Shown here piece by piece: positions 7,118 to 59,669 of a stretch of 64,000 nt of DNA (position 1 is the stretch's first letter; each line of letters starts with the position of its first letter). Origin of the DNA: a virus. The position numbers and the translations under genes were made by a program. The stretch covers positions 11,551 to 75,550 of IMG/VR virus record IMGVR_UViG_3300010354_000064; one strand, written 5' to 3'. The notes beneath the pieces are model-generated. The model saw only the letters and a program-made list of their open reading frames with translations, did no database searches and had not been told where the DNA came from.

Positions 7118-10100
7118 TCAGCCGATTTGCTTGATGAGACGAAGCACCGGCTGGAGGGCCATCCGGGCCTGGGGGTTCTCGCTGGCGACGCGGATGACCT
7201 CGTGGCGGAGAGCGGCGTACGCCTGCTTCTTCTGCCCCTGCTCCTTGTCGTCGTCCGACTTCTCTTCCTTCTTCTTCATGTGCTCCTTGAGAGCCGGAGG
7301 AAGCTGCCCGCCCTGCTTCTTCTGACCCTGAGCCTGCTGGCCCTGGTCCTGCTGGCCCTGGTCCTGCTGGCCCTGCTCGGCCTCATCCTGCTCGGCAGCG
7401 AGCTTCATGAGGTCGAAGGCGATGTGCGGCTGGGTGCTGGCGAGCTTGGCGGCGTAGGAACGGATACGAGCAGAAGCGTGCATGGTGGTCGTCCTCTCTG
7501 GGGTCGGGTGATAAGGAGATTCGCTTGACCCCCTCGCCGCCTTGCGGACGGTGAGAAGAGTCTCGTCCTCGGGCTGGCCCGTGAGACGAGCCAGGAGCTT
7601 GTTGTAGAGGGCCGGGTGGAGCCCGACCGAGTACTTGCCGTTGTCGAGGGTGTAGACCGCGTAGTCAAGCGCAGCACGGAAGCGTGCGTCCGGCACACCG
7701 TCCCCCATCACCGAGGGGTCGAGGACGAACTGACCCAGCCAGTCTCGGGCCGCCTTGAGCAGAGCCGTCTCATCTGCCGCGTCAAGGTCGCGAGCGTGCG
7801 CTTGCTCCCACTCGTTGTAGGGGGCGAAGCCCTCATGCCCCGGCGGATAGGGCTCGACGCCCCAGTAAACCGCCTGGCGCGAACGCAAATCGTGCTCGGA
7901 AGCCATCACATCGCCTGCCGTACAAGTAAGATAGCGGTCGAGAACGCGAGCCGTGACCACGGGAGGAGTCGGTTTCCCGCCGAGGGAGCGGAAGAAGTCC
8001 ATGAGCCTGTTGCCCCGAGACGGCTTTGGTCTTCGCACCTCGTCATAGCCCAAGGGCTTGAGGGGCTCGCGCGGCGGGTCGGGTAGCGGCCCATCACGGT
8101 AGGGGCCTCTGCCCCGCTCGGCCTTCTTGCGGTCGGACTCGTACTGCTTGGTTTCCTTCTGCCACCGCTTGTACTCGGCGTCGTAGTCGTCGGCGTCCTG
8201 CTCCTGCATCCACCGCTCGACAGCCGCCCTTTTGTCGGCGGATACCGGGGCGTCCTTGAAACTCTGACGTAGCCGCTCACGCAAGAGCTTTGCGCTATTG
8301 ACCCTGCCCTCTTCGGGGTAGAGGGCGTCTCGGGAACGGAGGTCTTTCGAGGCCCGTTCGAGGTTCTTGAGGAGCTTGCCGGTGGGCACATGCTCGTTGA
8401 TGGCGGTATCGGAGTCAGTCGGCGCTTCGAGATACCGGCGACGCATGTCTTGGTAGTCTCGGGCTTGCAGGTAAGCCACCGCCTGAGCCTTTGCGTCGTC
8501 GGTCTTGAGCCCGTCAAGGAGCTTCTTCGTGGCCGCAGAATCCATCGGAGACTCGACCTTACCGTCGCCCAGAACCTCCTCGTAGGTCTGCCGTGGGGGC
8601 GGAGCAGGCTTGCCCCACATCGCTACGAGTCGGTCGGAGAGCCCGGCCGGAACACCGTTCTTGGACATGTCTTTCGCGACCATCCCCTGCCCGGCGAGGC
8701 TGATGGCGAGGATACGATTCCGATGGTCGTTGAGCGCCTGCGCCTTGTCCTTCGGTTCGAGGTCGGCGAAAGACACCTGTTTGCCCTTCCACTCGACTGT
8801 CTCGGGGGGCGGAATCTTCGCCGGGTCCGTCTGATAGACCGCTTGGAGCCGGTCGCGGAACGCATCCATATCTTCCGGCTTGGTGCTACGGAACGTCTTG
8901 ATGTCGTTGAGAATCGCCGCCTGGTCGTCGGGGTGGAGCTTGGAGATTTGCCCGTAATGCACAGCGGGAATCGTAGCGAGCAAGTCGAAGTCGATTTGCT
9001 GCCTCTCGTCCGAAGGTACCTTGCGCCGCTTGAGAGGGGGTAGAGCCACTTCCTTTGAGGCTTCGGCGAGGTCGGCGAGAGACTCGACACCCTCGGGTAG
9101 CTTCACACCCTTCAACTCGGGCAAGTGCTTCGAGATAGGTAGCTCGTCGAGCGGAGCCCCGCTTTTCTTCAACTCTTGGAACCGTTGTGCAACGTCGCCG
9201 GTAGCGCCTTCACCGCCCGCCATAACGGCCGCGATTTGGTCGAAGATGGACTGCACGTTGGGATGTTGTCGAACGAGCACTTGCATCTGCTCGCGACGAA
9301 CTTTCTTCTGCTCTTTCCCCTCGAACTCTTCGATGACCTTAGCCTTAGCGTCATCGGGTAGCTCGTCGAACGGGACACGCTTCTTCGGCTTCTTGCTGCG
9401 GTCGAGGAAGAGGGGTTCACCAGCGGCATCTTCCGTGGTGGTGGGAAGTCCCTTCGCATAGGCGCGGAACTCGTCGCTTTTTGCCCTACCCTCCTGCAAG
9501 AACCGCTCGACAACCCGCTGTGCCTGCGCCTTTGACTCAGAGTCACCCGGTTTGCTCTCCGGCTTCGCACCCGGTTTGCTCTCCGGCTTCGCACCCGGTT
9601 TGTTCTCCGGCTTCGGATGGAGCTTCTTGGTGGCCTTGATGAGGTCATCAACCGACTGGATGTCCTCGGGTAGCTTCACACCCTTCAACTCGGGAATGTG
9701 CTTCGAGAGGGGGAGGCTTTCGAGCGGGTGCCCTTCCTTCTGGAGAGCGCGAAGCCGAGTAGCGAGAGGCCCTTCCTCGTCACCAGGCCCCTTGGTGGCA
9801 CCCCCGAGAAACGCGAGGTCTTTCAGGGCGGCCTGAATCTCAGCGTTCTCCGAGTGCTCTCGGAACGCCGCTACCGTGTCGTCGCCAAGTTTCTCGACAC
9901 GGCGACGCTCAACGAGGTCTTCGAGAGCGGCCGAAGAAAGCTCGCCCACCGGCACGGACTTCTTCTGGCTCTTGTCGTAGACCCTGAGTTGCCCGTCCGC
10001 GCCGCGCTCGGCAAAGGGCAACTTCTCGATGAAGGCATCCCGCGCCTGCTCGTTCTCGAACGACTGGTTGAGCTTCGCCCGTGCTGCTTCGCGCTTCGGG

Positions 10101-49702: not shown

Positions 49703-49746
49703 GCACAGAGGCTAGCGCACAAGACCCTTATGCAGTTACTTGGGGT

Positions 49747-50157
49747 GTGAAGGCGTTACCAGTACTCCCCTGTCACCCGTGCCCACACGGTAACCGCTGC
49801 TGCTCGAAAGGAACCAACCTCCGAGACGATGAAGCGGCAGACATCGCAGAGAAGTACGGGGCCACGACTGTCGTGCTTCTGGTGGGGCACGAGGTCCACG
49901 AGAGATTTTCGGTCAACGGAGAAGCCGTCTCCGCAAGTACCCTCTGGAATCGAGGTGCGCCCGAATGGGCAACAGCCGTAAGCCAGCGAGGGTGCGTATT
50001 CCTCGAACCCGACGGGTCTTGTCGGCTGTACGCGGAGTCCTTCTACCCGCAGGTCTGCCGGATGTTTCCGTGGAAGGATCTCGCATCGGCTGACCGCGCA
50101 GAAGACGCGGAGCTATGCCCCGCGCACGGTCAACCGATGGCGACGCAGACCATGTAG
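49747..50157 (+). CDS. YkgJ-like Cys-cluster (Zn/Fe-chelating) protein
   Basis: C..C....CC, CVFL...G.C.LY...P..CR.FP. Confidence 0.75.
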   Translation: MKALPVLPCHPCPHGNRCCSKGTNLRDDEAADIAEKYGATTVVLLVGHEVHERFSVNGEAVSASTLWNRGAPEWATAVSQRGCVFLEPDGSCRLYAESFYPQVCRMFPWKDLASADRAEDAELCPAHGQPMATQTM

Positions 50158-50339
50158 GCCGCGAACCGCTCGGGGCACGGAGTACCCTCGCGCCGGACGG
50201 CCTCTTCGGCGATTTTGAGCCACAAGGGCTTGTTGTGGGCCGTCGTGGCCCACTCGCGGATGGACTTGCTCTCGACCTTCGCGAGGGCGCGAGAGAAGAA
50301 CGCGCGGGCCTCGGACTTCATGGCGGAGTTGGTGCTCAT
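50130..50339 (-). CDS. small hypothetical protein
   Basis: ATG 8 nt after class I motif at 50348-50374. Confidence 0.65.
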   Translation of the reverse strand: MSTNSAMKSEARAFFSRALAKVESKSIREWATTAHNKPLWLKIAEEAVRREGTPCPERFAAYMVCVAIG

Positions 50340-50385
50340 GCTGCCTCTACGAGGTGAGGAGGTCGTGTACCAACGCCCCGACCCC

Positions 50386-50902
50386 AGAAACTACGAGAGC
50401 CGGTACCTCGGCCAAGGTATCCGGCTCTCAGCGACCAGTATGGCTCGTCGTCGCCCCGACCCTTTGGTGGTCGGCACCCCCGCGCTCTGGGTTCGCGGTC
50501 CCCCGGCTGCGTCCGCCGGACGACCTCTCTGACAGTTGCCCGTCTTGCCCCTTGGCCGGAGGCTCCCGTGAGAGACGGGAAGTTGGTGGGCTCGTTGCCA
50601 CCAGGGAACGGCATCGAGAGCGTGGCCCTCGGCAGACCCGTTAGGTCGAGCCCGGAAAGGTTGGAGTGCGCCCCCGATCTCTCCTCGGGGGCTTGGAGCC
50701 GAGCAACCCTCTGCTCGGGGGAGTCCGGCCCTAGAAACCGGAGGTATCGAAAACTTGCCGGGCTCGTCACCCCGGCGGGAGCCTCGGTCTTTCCTACCAT
50801 CCCCCCACTCTTGCGAGGGGGAGCCCGACCTCTTTCGAGGCCCCGGAACCAGCACCCTTGGTTAGCTGGCCTCCGGCCCGACCGTTTCGGCGTCGTCCCT
50901 AC
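50386..50902 (-). ncRNA. large structured non-coding RNA candidate (~510 nt), family not recognised
   Basis: Own class I promoter with no ATG at the usual position; ~15 local hairpins, GNRA loops on the minus strand, long-range helices, 3' terminal hairpin. Confidence 0.7.
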
Positions 50903-50910
50903 ACTCCCTC

Positions 50911-50937
50911 TACGAGGTGAGCCCGCTGACTATCAAC
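50911..50937 (-). promoter_or_regulatory. class I promoter-like motif upstream of ncRNA candidate
   Basis: GTTGAT-N10-CTCACCTCGTA. Confidence 0.8.
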
Positions 50938-51148
50938 GGGTTTCTTCGTAGAGGGCGACCCTTCCTGCTGCCGCCTTCGCTTCCCACCGCTGCACCGCCT
51001 GAATGACACGGTGACGGTAGGAGCCGTCCGCTTCTGACGGCCGACGCGCAACCTCGACGCCCATCGAACGGACGAGCCGCTCCAGGGCCGAGGTCGGCAC
51101 CTGACGCAGTTCGTCGAACTTCAGGGTGATGGTCAGCGAGCGGCGCAT
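50933..51148 (-). CDS. small hypothetical protein
   Basis: ATG 8 nt after class I motif at 51157-51183. Confidence 0.65.
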   Translation of the reverse strand: MRRSLTITLKFDELRQVPTSALERLVRSMGVEVARRPSEADGSYRHRVIQAVQRWEAKAAAGRVALYEETR

Positions 51149-51220
51149 ACCTCCTCTACGAGGTGAGCGTGCCGAGCACCAACGGAGGGTCGGCACTTTT
51201 CTAGAACTACCGACGTTTCG

Positions 51221-53365: not shown

Positions 53366-53767
53366 ATGACGGAGAGCAGCGACAAGGTGAAGCAGGCAGT
53401 AGCGTTAGTCACGGCCGTCACGGCGCTCGTAACAGCAGGCACGTCGCTCGTGAAGGCGCTCGACAAGAGCGTCGAGCGTGTGAGCTACGAGACTCTGAGC
53501 GAGAAGGTCGTCGAGCTTCAGAAAGAAGTCTGGGCGCTGAAGCAGGGGGCAACGGACTACATGCCATCGGAACCCGTCGATGCCGGGCTCTGCACGGCCG
53601 ACTACGACCAGGACGGGCTTCTGGACACGACCAAGGTCTTGCCCGCGTTGCCCGTGTGGCCCTCTTCGAGCGCGTCGGCCCCGCCGCAACCAGAACCCTC
53701 GGTCAGCGTAACGCCGCCGACGCCGCCACCCTCGTGGGAAGCCATCGAGTTGAAGGCGCAGCGGTAG
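53366..53767 (+). CDS. hypothetical protein with hydrophobic N-terminal helix and coiled coil
   Basis: AVALVTAVTALVTAGTSLV segment, Pro-rich tail. Confidence 0.6.
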   Translation: MTESSDKVKQAVALVTAVTALVTAGTSLVKALDKSVERVSYETLSEKVVELQKEVWALKQGATDYMPSEPVDAGLCTADYDQDGLLDTTKVLPALPVWPSSSASAPPQPEPSVSVTPPTPPPSWEAIELKAQR

Positions 53768-53769
53768 GG

Positions 53770-53840
53770 CTGGGGGACAAGGACTCGAACCTTGATTGAC
53801 GGGGCCAGAACCCGCCGTCCTGCCGTTAGACGATCCCCCA
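53770..53840 (-). tRNA. tRNA-Gln(CUG), CCA not encoded
   Basis: Acceptor TGGGGGA/TCCCCCA, anticodon arm GCGGG-TTCTGGC-CCCGT, T arm CAAGG-TTCGAGT-CCTTG, discriminator G. Confidence 0.93.
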
Positions 53841-53857
53841 AAGGGACGAGGACGACC

Positions 53858-58059: not shown

Positions 58060-58084
58060 GTTCGCTCCGTTCCTTCTCCCCCGT

Positions 58085-58111
58085 TACGAGGTGAGCCGAG
58101 CCGCTACCAAC
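58085..58111 (-). promoter_or_regulatory. class I promoter-like motif upstream of sigma gene
   Basis: GTTGGT-N10-CTCACCTCGTA. Confidence 0.75.
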
Positions 58112-58943: not shown

Positions 58944-59378
58944 TCACTTCGGGAGGTTCACGCGGGGGGTGCTCGCCACCATCTCGACGAGGTTCTCGAC
59001 GATTGCCCGCTGCGCCTTCGGGAGGGCGACGAGCTTCTCCTCGAAGTCCGGCGCGAACTCGACGACCGTCTTCTTGACGAAGAGCGACCCGTAGACCTCG
59101 GCCGGGAGGCTCGCCTCGGAGGCGAGGAGGTCCGCACCCTTGCGGGCCTTCGGGGCCGCCTTCACCATCGCGACCTGGGCCGAGCCCAGGGTGCCCTCGA
59201 CGGCCGCGTTGTTCTCGCCCGAGAGGGCCGCCGCAGCGATGCCCTTCTCGCGGATGAACGCCTTGAGGGCGTCCAGTTCCTTCGTGAGGCGGTTCACCTC
59301 ACGGTTCGCCTCGATGGCCGCGTCCACGATCTCGACCACGTTACCCGCCGCAACCATGTCCTTCGCGCTCTTGTTCAT
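58944..59378 (-). CDS. hypothetical protein
   Basis: Strong codon bias, SD GGGAG, class I motif at 59450-59476. Confidence 0.75.
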   Translation of the reverse strand: MNKSAKDMVAAGNVVEIVDAAIEANREVNRLTKELDALKAFIREKGIAAAALSGENNAAVEGTLGSAQVAMVKAAPKARKGADLLASEASLPAEVYGSLFVKKTVVEFAPDFEEKLVALPKAQRAIVENLVEMVASTPRVNLPK

Positions 59379-59669
59379 CGGAGTCTCCCGCCGGGAACGC
59401 GACCCGTCCGACCGTCGGACTTGGGTGGCTTCGCGGCTTGTGACTCCTCTACGAGGTGAGCCCGGCAGGTACCAACGCGACCCCGAAAGAAAATCGACCC
59501 GGCAGGTTCAACCCCACCCCGATAGCTCAAATCCGGCCACAAGGTGTACGGAACCCTTACCCGCCATCCTCCCTCTCGGAGAACGGGGCTCCCGACAACC
59601 AACCCTGCAACCCGCTTCCGAGCTACCTCGGAAGCTCGTTCTCGTGAATCCAGCAGGCTTCCCCTGCTA

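What the first reader, a model, noticed from the sequence alone, without database searches (positions are those of the whole stretch)
50386..50937. Candidate new ~510-nt highly structured phage ncRNA with its own promoter
Seen: a full class I motif (50911-50937) points into a gap with no credible ORF. Six other copies of this motif have ATG exactly 8 nt downstream; here that position (50902) reads GTAGGGACGAC. The predicted transcript is tiled by hairpins (plus-strand coordinates): 50882-50890, 50849-50869, 50829-50840 (CCUC-GAAA-GAGG), 50801-50821 (CUC-GCAA-GAG), 50757-50776, 50724-50742, 50699-50718, 50670-50692, 50584-50603, 50564-50580, 50531-50544 (GACGG-GCAA-CUGUC), 50503-50519, 50480-50498, 50456-50474, 50431-50454, and a long 3' hairpin 50395-50429 followed by GUAGUUUCU. 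The GNRA loops read correctly only on the promoter strand. Long-range helices close the fold: GGACGAC (50892-50898) with GUCGUCC (50518-50524), and GGCCGGAGGC (50869-50878) with GCCUCCGGCC (50554-50563). Known: phages carry large ornate RNAs such as GOLLD and ROOL. I do not recognise this as one of them, nor as tmRNA, RNase P or an intron. Inference: an early-expressed RNA scaffold, sponge or ribozyme.
Basis: partly seen in the sequence, partly recalled or inferred. Interest (0 to 1): 0.92.

Follow-up and report, generated by a model that had tools for sequence, protein, structure and literature searches.

The report
New structured RNA gene, jumbo phage
The gene-free gap after the chaperonin gene of this uncultured giant phage is a real gene for a folded non-coding RNA: its first ~150 bases are conserved, with compensating base-pair changes, in three distant relatives, it matches no known RNA family, and its job is unknown.

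Summary
A promoter motif at 50907-50937 points into a 593-nt gap that shows no coding signal.

The new evidence is comparative. The first ~150 nt (50752-50902, minus strand) recur downstream of GroEL in three metagenomic jumbo-phage contigs whose GroEL is only 61-66% identical (nhmmer E 2e-18 to 1e-8). Each copy sits behind the same kind of promoter and ends at a strong intrinsic terminator. The RNAs are about 235, 290, 420 and 517 nt long.

The shared core has four hairpins and near-invariant loops and junctions. 95.7% of its cells are paired, 8 of 24 pairs show double changes, and no shuffle out of 500 reached any of the five measures. Reading frames differ between the homologs.

Rfam, ARAGORN and the ORF searches found nothing.

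The 3' two-thirds is specific to this lineage.

Function is unknown. My best guess is a trans-acting protein-binding RNA.

The scan has noted other large jumbo-phage RNAs before. None of them shares sequence with this one.

The parts
50907..50937 (-). Class I promoter motif (GTTGATA-N11-CTCACCTCGTAGAGG). The predicted transcription start is about G50902.
   Evidence: The motif recurs before leaderless ATG starts. Homologs and a natural strain variant keep a TTGATC...TAGTAG/TGTAGT element at the same distance from GACGAC.
50752..50902 (-). Conserved 5' core of the RNA, about 150 nt.
   Evidence: nhmmer hits in L020, L022 and L023 (E 2e-18, 2e-10, 1e-8). CM R1 scores 135-148 bits. Covariation. 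Strain variants show 0-2 differences here against 4-12% in flanking genes.
50879..50895 (-). P1 hairpin (CGAC...GUCG, variable distal part).
   Evidence: The 4 outer pairs are invariant. The distal CCG/CGG becomes CCU/AGG in L022.
50843..50876 (-). P2 hairpin, 11 bp with a bulged A and a near-invariant 11-nt loop UAACCRAGGRU.
   Evidence: 5 of 11 pairs change on both sides and 95% of cells are paired.
50829..50840 (-). P3 hairpin CCUC-GAAA-GAGG (GNRA loop).
   Evidence: Covaries (CG to UA). A strain variant changes the loop from GAAA to GCAA, which is still GNRA (50835 T>G on the plus strand).
50801..50821 (-). Window-specific inserted hairpin (CCCCCUC-GCAA-GAGUGGGGGG).
   Evidence: Absent from L020, L022 and L023. 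Folds at -13.6 kcal/mol on its own.
50777..50798 (-). J3/4, a near-invariant purine-rich strand GGNAGGAAARNCCGAGGCUCC.
   Evidence: CCGAGGCUCC is invariant in all four sequences.
50757..50776 (-). P4 hairpin, 6 bp with an 8-nt loop GUGACRAG.
   Evidence: 2 of 6 pairs change on both sides (GC to UA, CG to UA) and all cells are paired. L022 has a second copy at L022:7715-7753.
50430..50756 (-). Lineage-specific 3' extension, tiled by hairpins. It contains diverged repeats of core modules: P4-like at 50580-50605 and P1-like at 50443-50473.
   Evidence: No match in homologs. Direct repeats D1 and D4. A weak CM match at 50387-50483, E 0.055. 1-2 nt indels between strains.
50386..50429 (-). Terminal 15-bp hairpin followed by GUAGUUUCU (terminator-like).
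   Evidence: -24.7 kcal/mol with pair probability 0.99. Part of it is flagged by the terminator scan. Homologs end in strong stem plus U-run terminators.

Best explanation
The unit 50386-50937 (minus strand) is a self-contained gene for a non-coding RNA of about 517 nt. It is the founding member of a small, uncatalogued RNA family found in a sub-clade of high-GC, GroEL-, tRNA- and tmRNA-encoding jumbo phages.

A phage promoter of the type that otherwise drives leaderless mRNAs starts transcription 2-6 nt before an invariant GACGAC. A stem-loop terminator ends the transcript.

The functional module is the conserved 5' core. It has four hairpins, P1 to P4. Their stems covary, while the apical loops (UAACCRAGGRU, GUGACRAG) and the junction strand (GGAAARNCCGAGGCUCC) are nearly invariant.

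The 3' part varies freely in length (about 90 to 370 nt). In this phage it is partly built from duplicated, diverged core modules.

Inferred, not shown: the RNA acts in trans as a protein-binding RNA (an RNP component or decoy). The invariant loops would be the recognition surface, and the repeated (G)ACGAGCC/GUGACRAG hairpins would add binding sites. The confidence given (0.8) is for the claim that this is a genuine structured non-coding RNA gene with a conserved core; within that, I give the protein-binding mechanism roughly 30-35%.
For: Shown:
1. The gap has no coding signal. The 154-aa ORF has no relative among 5.8 billion proteins. No Pfam or PHROG family matches any overlapping ORF.
2. 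The core is conserved at 76-88% nucleotide identity in L020, L022 and L023, whose GroEL is only 61-66% identical at the protein level.
3. On alignment A2, 95.7% of 94 cells are paired. 8 of 24 pairs show double changes, 0 of 500 shuffles reach any of the five measures, and slid controls reach only 31-52% paired.
4. Indels that are not multiples of 3 separate the conserved blocks, so each homolog would read the conserved P2 block in a different frame.
5. The architecture is the same in all four: a GTTGAT promoter, the core, a variable region, and a terminator-type stem-loop, which carries a strong U-run in the three homologs and only a weak U-tail in the window.
6. Sense-strand markers are present: six G-U cells in the covarying stems, GNRA loops, and U-tails. 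The sense z-scores are -3.4, -3.4, -2.3 and -4.9, and the sense strand is stronger than the antisense strand in 3 of 4.
7. In natural strain variants the upstream gene is swapped for 327 unrelated nt, with the breakpoint at 50900. The core itself is almost unchanged (0-2 differences), and a new TTGATC-N16-TAGTAG element precedes it.
8. Synteny holds. The downstream 130-aa gene of the relatives corresponds to window 49262->48873.

For the protein-binding inference only: ACGAGCC occurs 3 times in the 517 nt, about 0.06 expected by my own estimate from base composition. L022 duplicates P4.
Against: - The family has only four members, so the covariation statistics are weak and phylogeny is not controlled.
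- There is no direct evidence of a transcript.
- The folding z-scores are modest for 65-68% GC.
- In the P4 region 5 of 7 substitutions fall at third positions of one frame (EAPAGVTSPA), so a short peptide cannot be excluded there.
- No protein partner was identified, and no conserved neighbour is specific to the phages that carry the RNA.
- The window's terminator has only a weak U-tract.
- Thermodynamic folding of the full length gives the covariation-supported P4 only 0.08 probability.
Confidence: 0.8

Rival explanations
1. Cis-regulatory leader (a riboswitch or attenuator). The conserved 5' core would be a ligand- or factor-sensing aptamer, the variable 3' part with its terminator would be the expression platform, and read-through would control the genes downstream.
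For: A conserved 5' core followed by a variable region and an intrinsic terminator is the classical riboswitch layout. In L020, L022 and L023 the next gene (130 aa) starts only about 20 nt after the terminator.
Against: In the window the terminator is followed by a complete class I promoter for the next gene, and that gene differs from the one in the relatives. In relatives the 130-aa gene carries its own conserved CTTGTGCC-N11-13-GTG motif, also in phages that lack the RNA altogether. The window's 350-nt 'platform' is far too long. No Rfam riboswitch matches, including c-di-AMP.
Confidence: 0.08
2. A large self-assembling 'ornate' RNA in the manner of GOLLD or ROOL. The RNA would form homo-oligomers through the competing 10-nt complementarities, and would act as a cage or scaffold rather than as a protein ligand.
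For: It is phage-borne, lies in a tRNA/tmRNA neighbourhood in the relatives, is several hundred nt long and is tiled by hairpins. One 15-nt segment (50554-50568) can pair exactly with two different conserved core strands (I3 and I4), which could also happen between molecules.
Against: The 3' partner segment is absent from the three homologs. The family ranges down to about 235 nt. There is no match to the GOLLD or ROOL models. Nothing here tests oligomerisation.
Confidence: 0.07
3. A protein-coding or dual-function unit. One or more short ORFs, for example one containing EAPAGVTSPA, would be the selected feature.
For: One frame across P4 gives (G/R)K(T/S)EAP(A/S)GVTSP in all four sequences plus the L022 duplicate, and most substitutions there are at third positions.
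Against: The homologs share no start codon, and the peptides run from 24 to 154 aa with unrelated tails. 1- and 4-nt indels lie between the putative starts and the conserved block. The two non-synonymous changes in L022 are exactly a compensatory G-C to U-A pair. The most conserved block, P2, would be read in different frames. Codon scores are negative. No protein homologs were found.
Confidence: 0.05
4. Not an RNA gene. It would be a DNA-level element (a replication or recombination site near the replication genes), or simply GC-rich spacer whose hairpins arise by chance.
For: The GC content is 66-68%, so many hairpins are expected and the z-scores are only -2 to -3.4. Mosaic breakpoints lie at both ends of the unit in strain variants. 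Clamp-loader and RNR genes lie downstream.
Against: Compensatory changes with G-U pairs, GNRA loops and U-tailed terminators are all strand-specific. The core is more conserved than the flanking protein genes. A promoter is retained exactly upstream in every homolog.
Confidence: 0.05

Closest known systems
GOLLD (Rfam RF01998) and ROOL (RF03087), large ornate RNAs of phages and prophages
   Same: A stand-alone, several-hundred-nt structured RNA with many hairpins. It is phage-encoded, lies in a tRNA-rich neighbourhood, and has no known function.
   Different: There is no sequence or structure match to either model, even at E of 10 or less. Only about 150 nt are conserved. The size varies from 235 to 517 nt. 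No pseudoknots or multimer contacts are shown.
tmRNA (SsrA, RF00023)
   Same: A phage-encoded structured RNA of similar length in the same genomic module. The relative L020 has a true tmRNA 4.5 kb upstream.
   Different: It has no tRNA-like domain and no tag ORF. ARAGORN and Rfam are both negative. The relatives carry a separate bona fide tmRNA (103.7 bits), so this RNA is something else.
Bacterial RNase P RNA (conserved region CR-I, GAGGAAAGUCCGGGCUCC, quoted from memory)
   Same: J3/4 reads GGUAGGAAAGACCGAGGCUCC, a superficial word resemblance to CR-I. A tRNA-rich phage might have use for an RNase P RNA.
   Different: No Rfam RNase P model matches. No partner strand for a P4 helix is conserved. 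The shortest member is about 235 nt.
Riboswitch aptamers with terminator expression platforms (for example c-di-AMP, RF00379)
   Same: A conserved multi-hairpin 5' domain with invariant junction nucleotides, then a variable region ending in an intrinsic terminator.
   Different: RF00379 finds nothing at E of 10 or less. In the window, a separate promoter precedes the next gene. The downstream gene is not conserved between members.
Candidate structured RNAs mined from IMG/VR (Fremin and Bhatt 2023, PMC10690425)
   Same: The same kind of object: intergenic, conserved and covarying, in uncultivated phage contigs.
   Different: That catalogue is built from homologous intergenic regions clustered within IMG/VR. 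My five pattern scans found no second copy of this RNA in IMG/VR, so it is unlikely to be listed there. I could not check the catalogue by sequence.

Membership tests
GOLLD (RF01998) / ROOL (RF03087) | A match to the family covariance model at or above the gathering score. | tested here: not met
   No hit at the gathering threshold in the window. No hit at E of 10 or less on 50200-51100, nor at E of 5 or less in the three homologous loci.
tmRNA | A tRNA-like acceptor/T-arm domain plus a tag-peptide reading frame. | tested here: not met
   ARAGORN finds only tRNA-Gln at 53767-53841. Rfam tmRNA and permuted tmRNA do not match the region. L020 has a separate true tmRNA.
RNase P RNA | Conserved regions CR-I to CR-V, with a P4 helix formed between CR-I and CR-V. 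| tested here: not met
   No RNase P model hit. No conserved complement to J3/4 in the homologs.
c-di-AMP riboswitch (RF00379) | A match to the covariance model. | tested here: not met
   No match in the whole 75.5-kb record at E of 10 or less, while the control genomes responded.
Riboswitch / transcription attenuator (general kind) | It lies in the 5' leader of the regulated gene with no promoter in between, and the same gene class follows it in different genomes. | tested here: not met
   In the window a full class I promoter lies between the terminator and the next ATG. The next gene differs between the window and the relatives. The 130-aa gene has its own conserved upstream motif.
Group I / group II introns | It interrupts a gene, and the catalytic core matches an intron model. 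| tested here: not met
   The flanking genes are complete and each has its own promoter and start. No intron model hit.
Structured non-coding RNA gene (generic criteria) | Homologs conserved with compensatory base changes, and no conserved reading frame. | tested here: met
   with the caveat that there are only 4 sequences.
Structured non-coding RNA gene (generic criteria) | A discrete transcript is detected. | not testable with these tools
   Only assembled contigs of public runs were available. See Tried and rejected.

The most novel reading that the evidence does not exclude
The ~130-nt conserved core (P1-P4, with invariant loops and junction) is a new autonomous RNA fold with a biochemical activity of its own. 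It could be a small-molecule- or tRNA-binding domain, or a ribozyme acting in trans. A clade of giant phages would carry it next to their tRNA, tmRNA and chaperonin genes as part of a module that takes over translation and protein homeostasis.
Probability: 0.12. Interest if true: 0.85.

Novelty: new variant of a known kind. Interest (0 to 1): 0.62.

Why it matters
Giant phages carry tRNAs, tmRNAs and chaperonins, but very few of their non-coding RNAs have been described.

This one is a clean promoter-to-terminator RNA gene. It has a compact core of about 130-150 nt that is better conserved than the surrounding protein genes, and it belongs to no Rfam family. It therefore adds a new family to the short list of phage structured RNAs.

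The core is also small enough for direct experiments: in-vitro transcription, SHAPE, pull-down and structure determination.

Near-identical copies occur in freshwater and estuary metagenomes from several studies, so the phage lineage is environmentally widespread.

The value is limited by two things: the family has only four known members, and the function is unknown.

Tried and rejected
- **Known RNA families.** Rfam at the gathering threshold and at permissive E-values, on the window and on the homologs, gave only chance-level hits (CC3664 at 19.6 bits against a cut-off of 60, and others).
- **More family members.** Five IMG/VR pattern scans found no true member. One GTDB genome scan gave 5 hits that matched the pattern only. 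CM and BLAST searches of five related jumbo-phage records gave nothing below E 0.2. GenBank phages gave no match.
- **ORF test.** The search for homologous proteins with the 154-aa ORF returned none.
- **Expression.** The one metatranscriptome run (X19) gave a single 167-nt contig on the upstream 71-aa gene (50960-51126) and nothing on the RNA. X20 is probably DNA. Contigs cannot show absence, so this says nothing either way.
- **Antisense targets.** Complements of J3/4 and of the P2 loop are not enriched in the window.
They are real as complementarity, but not conserved and not favoured in the ensemble.
- **Attenuator idea for the 130-aa gene.** Dropped after finding that gene's own upstream motif in relatives that lack the RNA.
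- **RNase P CR-I, c-di-AMP and 16S helix-18 word resemblances.** These were recalled from memory. The first two failed the model tests. The third was not testable.

Full report
**Setting.**
The window is bases 11551-75550 of a 75.5-kb IMG/VR contig. CheckV estimates 16% completeness, so this is a fragment of a very large phage. GC content is about 64%. GC3 of the long ORFs places the long genes on the minus strand.

Around the finding lie these genes:
- a tRNA-Gln at 53767-53841;
- a GroEL gene, 52870->51221;
- a 71-aa gene, 51148->50933;
- the gap;
- a 69-aa gene, 50339->50130;
- further downstream, clamp-loader subunits and a ribonucleotide reductase.

**The observation.**
The motif GTTGRT-N11-CTCACCTCGTAGAGG is a real, over-represented element. 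With up to 2 mismatches the 13-mer has 26 matches against 2.2 expected, and 6 exact copies on the minus strand.

In five in-window copies ATG follows at a fixed distance. This fits a promoter whose transcripts start at the A of ATG, that is, leaderless mRNAs. Two copies have leaders of 21 and 65 nt. The copy at 50907-50937 is followed by GTAGGGACGAC and no start codon.

No frame in the 593-nt gap has a positive codon score. The longest ORF (50800->50339, 154 aa) has no relative among 5.8 billion predicted proteins. Neither it nor any other overlapping ORF matches a Pfam or PHROG family.

The last is a 15-bp stem (-24.7 kcal/mol) followed by GUAGUUUCU. The next class I promoter follows directly after it.

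The minus-strand folding z-score is -2.2 to -3.4, against -1.4 to -2.1 for the plus strand.

**Homologs.**
GroEL was used to collect relatives: 6 IMG/VR contigs and 42 metagenome contigs, with GroEL 38-75% identical.

nhmmer with the gap sequence hit three of them, always on the GroEL strand and downstream of GroEL:
- L020:7956-8081, E 2e-18;
- L022:7575-7692, E 2e-10, plus a second partial copy at 7715-7879;
- L023:10084-10248, E 1e-8.

The matched part of the query is 50905->50749. It begins at the predicted transcription start. GroEL of these contigs is only 61-66% identical at the protein level. The RNA core keeps 76-88% nucleotide identity and includes a 33-nt block that is almost invariant.

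Each homolog is preceded by GTTGATC-N16-TGTAGT or a similar element. In L022 the same element also precedes a leaderless ATG gene directly after GroEL.

Each homolog ends at a strong stem plus U-run terminator. The resulting lengths are about 420, 290 and 235 nt. The conserved part is therefore the 5' ~130-150 nt, and the rest is variable.

Synteny supports orthology. The 130-aa gene that follows the RNA in the relatives corresponds to window 49262->48873. In more distant relatives that gene follows GroEL directly. This suggests the RNA unit is an insertion specific to one sub-clade.

**Structure.**
The alignment supports four local hairpins (A1 and A2):
- P1: CGAC...GUCG, with a distal part that changes from CCG/CGG to CCU/AGG.
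- P2: 11 bp, with the loop UAACCRAGGRU.
- P3: GNRA-capped in three members.
- P4: 6 bp, with the loop GUGACRAG.

Over 24 pairs and 94 cells, 95.7% of cells are paired and 8 pairs change on both sides. None of 500 shuffles reaches any of the five measures, and sliding the partners drops pairing to 31-52%.

Six cells are G-U pairs, which would be A-C mismatches on the other strand.

Between the stems, the loops and the junction GGAAARNCCGAGGCUCC are nearly invariant.

With four sequences this is suggestive rather than statistically decisive.

**Coding alternative.**
One frame across P4 reads ...EAPAGVTSPA... in all copies, and most substitutions there fall at third positions. Several points argue against a conserved ORF:
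- The homologs share no start codon.
- The reading frames end after 5 to 130 further codons, with unrelated tails.
- 1-, 4- and 20-nt indels separate the conserved blocks.
- The best-conserved block, P2, would be read in different frames in the window and in L020.
- The two non-synonymous changes in L022 form exactly a compensatory G-C to U-A pair.

A conserved ORF is therefore unlikely, although a dual role for P4 cannot be fully excluded.

**Population data.**
Parts of the stretch occur in 20 public runs from 11 studies of freshwater, lake and estuary samples. Contigs of two of these runs were laid on the window. They showed the following:
- There are 0-2 differences across 50755-50900, against 4-12% in the flanking genes.
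- One substitution turns the P3 loop from GAAA to GCAA, which is still GNRA.
- Many 1-2-nt indels occur in 50377-50505 and at 50619 and 50663.
- In one variant the upstream 71-aa gene and its surroundings (50901-51207) are replaced by 327 unrelated nt. The breakpoint is at 50900, and a new TTGATC-N16-TAGTAG element sits directly in front of GUGUAGGGACGAC.

So the RNA's 5' boundary behaves as a module boundary, and a promoter is retained there.

**What does not hold.**
However, GGCCGGAGGC is the 5' strand of the covarying P2. Neither 3' partner exists in the homologs. Both helices have about 0 probability in the ensemble.

The segment 50554-50568 can pair exactly with two conserved core strands (I3 and I4). 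This may be a lineage-specific alternative pairing, or it may be chance.

The 3' extension contains diverged repeats of core modules (D1 and D4; a weak CM match). The heptamer ACGAGCC occurs three times. L022 has independently duplicated P4.

**Identity.**
No Rfam family matches the window copy or any homolog. ARAGORN finds no tmRNA, and the relatives carry a separate true tmRNA and many tRNAs upstream of GroEL.

No further member was found in IMG/VR, in the GTDB genomes, in five related jumbo-phage records or in GenBank phages.

**Function.**
Nothing tested here fixes the function.
- The attenuator reading is weakened because the window has a complete promoter after the terminator. The 130-aa gene of the relatives also has its own conserved CTTGTGCC-N11-13-GTG motif, even in phages that lack the RNA.
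- No antisense targets stand out.
- The pattern of covarying stems, invariant apical loops and module duplication fits a trans-acting protein-binding RNA best. I give that mechanism roughly 30-35% within an 80% belief that this is a genuine structured RNA gene.

**Earlier scan notes.**
Notes from this scan on the same stretch proposed a conformational switch or a multimer based on the competing helices. The complementarity is confirmed, but its conservation is not.

The scan has also reported other large RNAs in unrelated jumbo phages. A look-up by sequence found no look-alike of this core outside its own genome.

Noticed in passing
window 49703-50129: A second gap with no minus-strand coding signal. 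It holds a plus-strand ORF (49747-50157, 136 aa) with a CxxCx5CC ... GxCxLY ... CRMFP pattern, reminiscent (from memory) of YkgJ-type Zn/Fe-S proteins. Pfam gives only a sub-threshold DUF7531 hit. It would be a rare opposite-strand gene in this region.
   Followed up: partly
window 49703-49735; L008, L024, L026-L028, L030, L032 upstream of the 130-aa gene: A second promoter-like motif, CTTGTGC(C/G), lies 11-13 nt before a GTG or ATG start. It is conserved across distant relatives in front of the 130-aa gene, and it precedes the 138-aa gene (49702->) in the window. It probably marks a different promoter class with near-leaderless starts.
   Followed up: partly
L020:3105-3480; L020, L022 and L023 upstream of GroEL: The relatives carry a bona fide tmRNA (103.7 bits) and arrays of tRNAs and tRNA-like genes just upstream of GroEL. 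The window has only one tRNA-Gln (53767-53841).
   Followed up: no
L022:1525-1631: A weak sub-threshold match to the Y RNA-like family YrlA (26.8 bits against a cut-off of 69, E 0.086) inside the tRNA region of a relative.
   Followed up: no
window 50901-51207: In natural strain variants (runs X3 and X5) this stretch, which holds most of the 71-aa gene and its promoter, is replaced by 327 unrelated nt. The breakpoints are at 50900 and 51208. This suggests mosaic exchange at promoter motifs.
   Followed up: partly
window 59378-59476 and 58060-58111: Two class I promoter copies drive genes with real 5' leaders (about 65 and 21 nt, with GGGAGA/GGAGAAGGA Shine-Dalgarno-like sequences) instead of leaderless ATGs.
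   Followed up: no
L006:8917-9180: The closest IMG/VR relative (GroEL 62% identical) has a 64-aa protein gene at the position where the RNA sits in L023, followed by a similar terminator. The RNA unit and small ORFs seem to be interchangeable cassettes at this site.
   Followed up: partly
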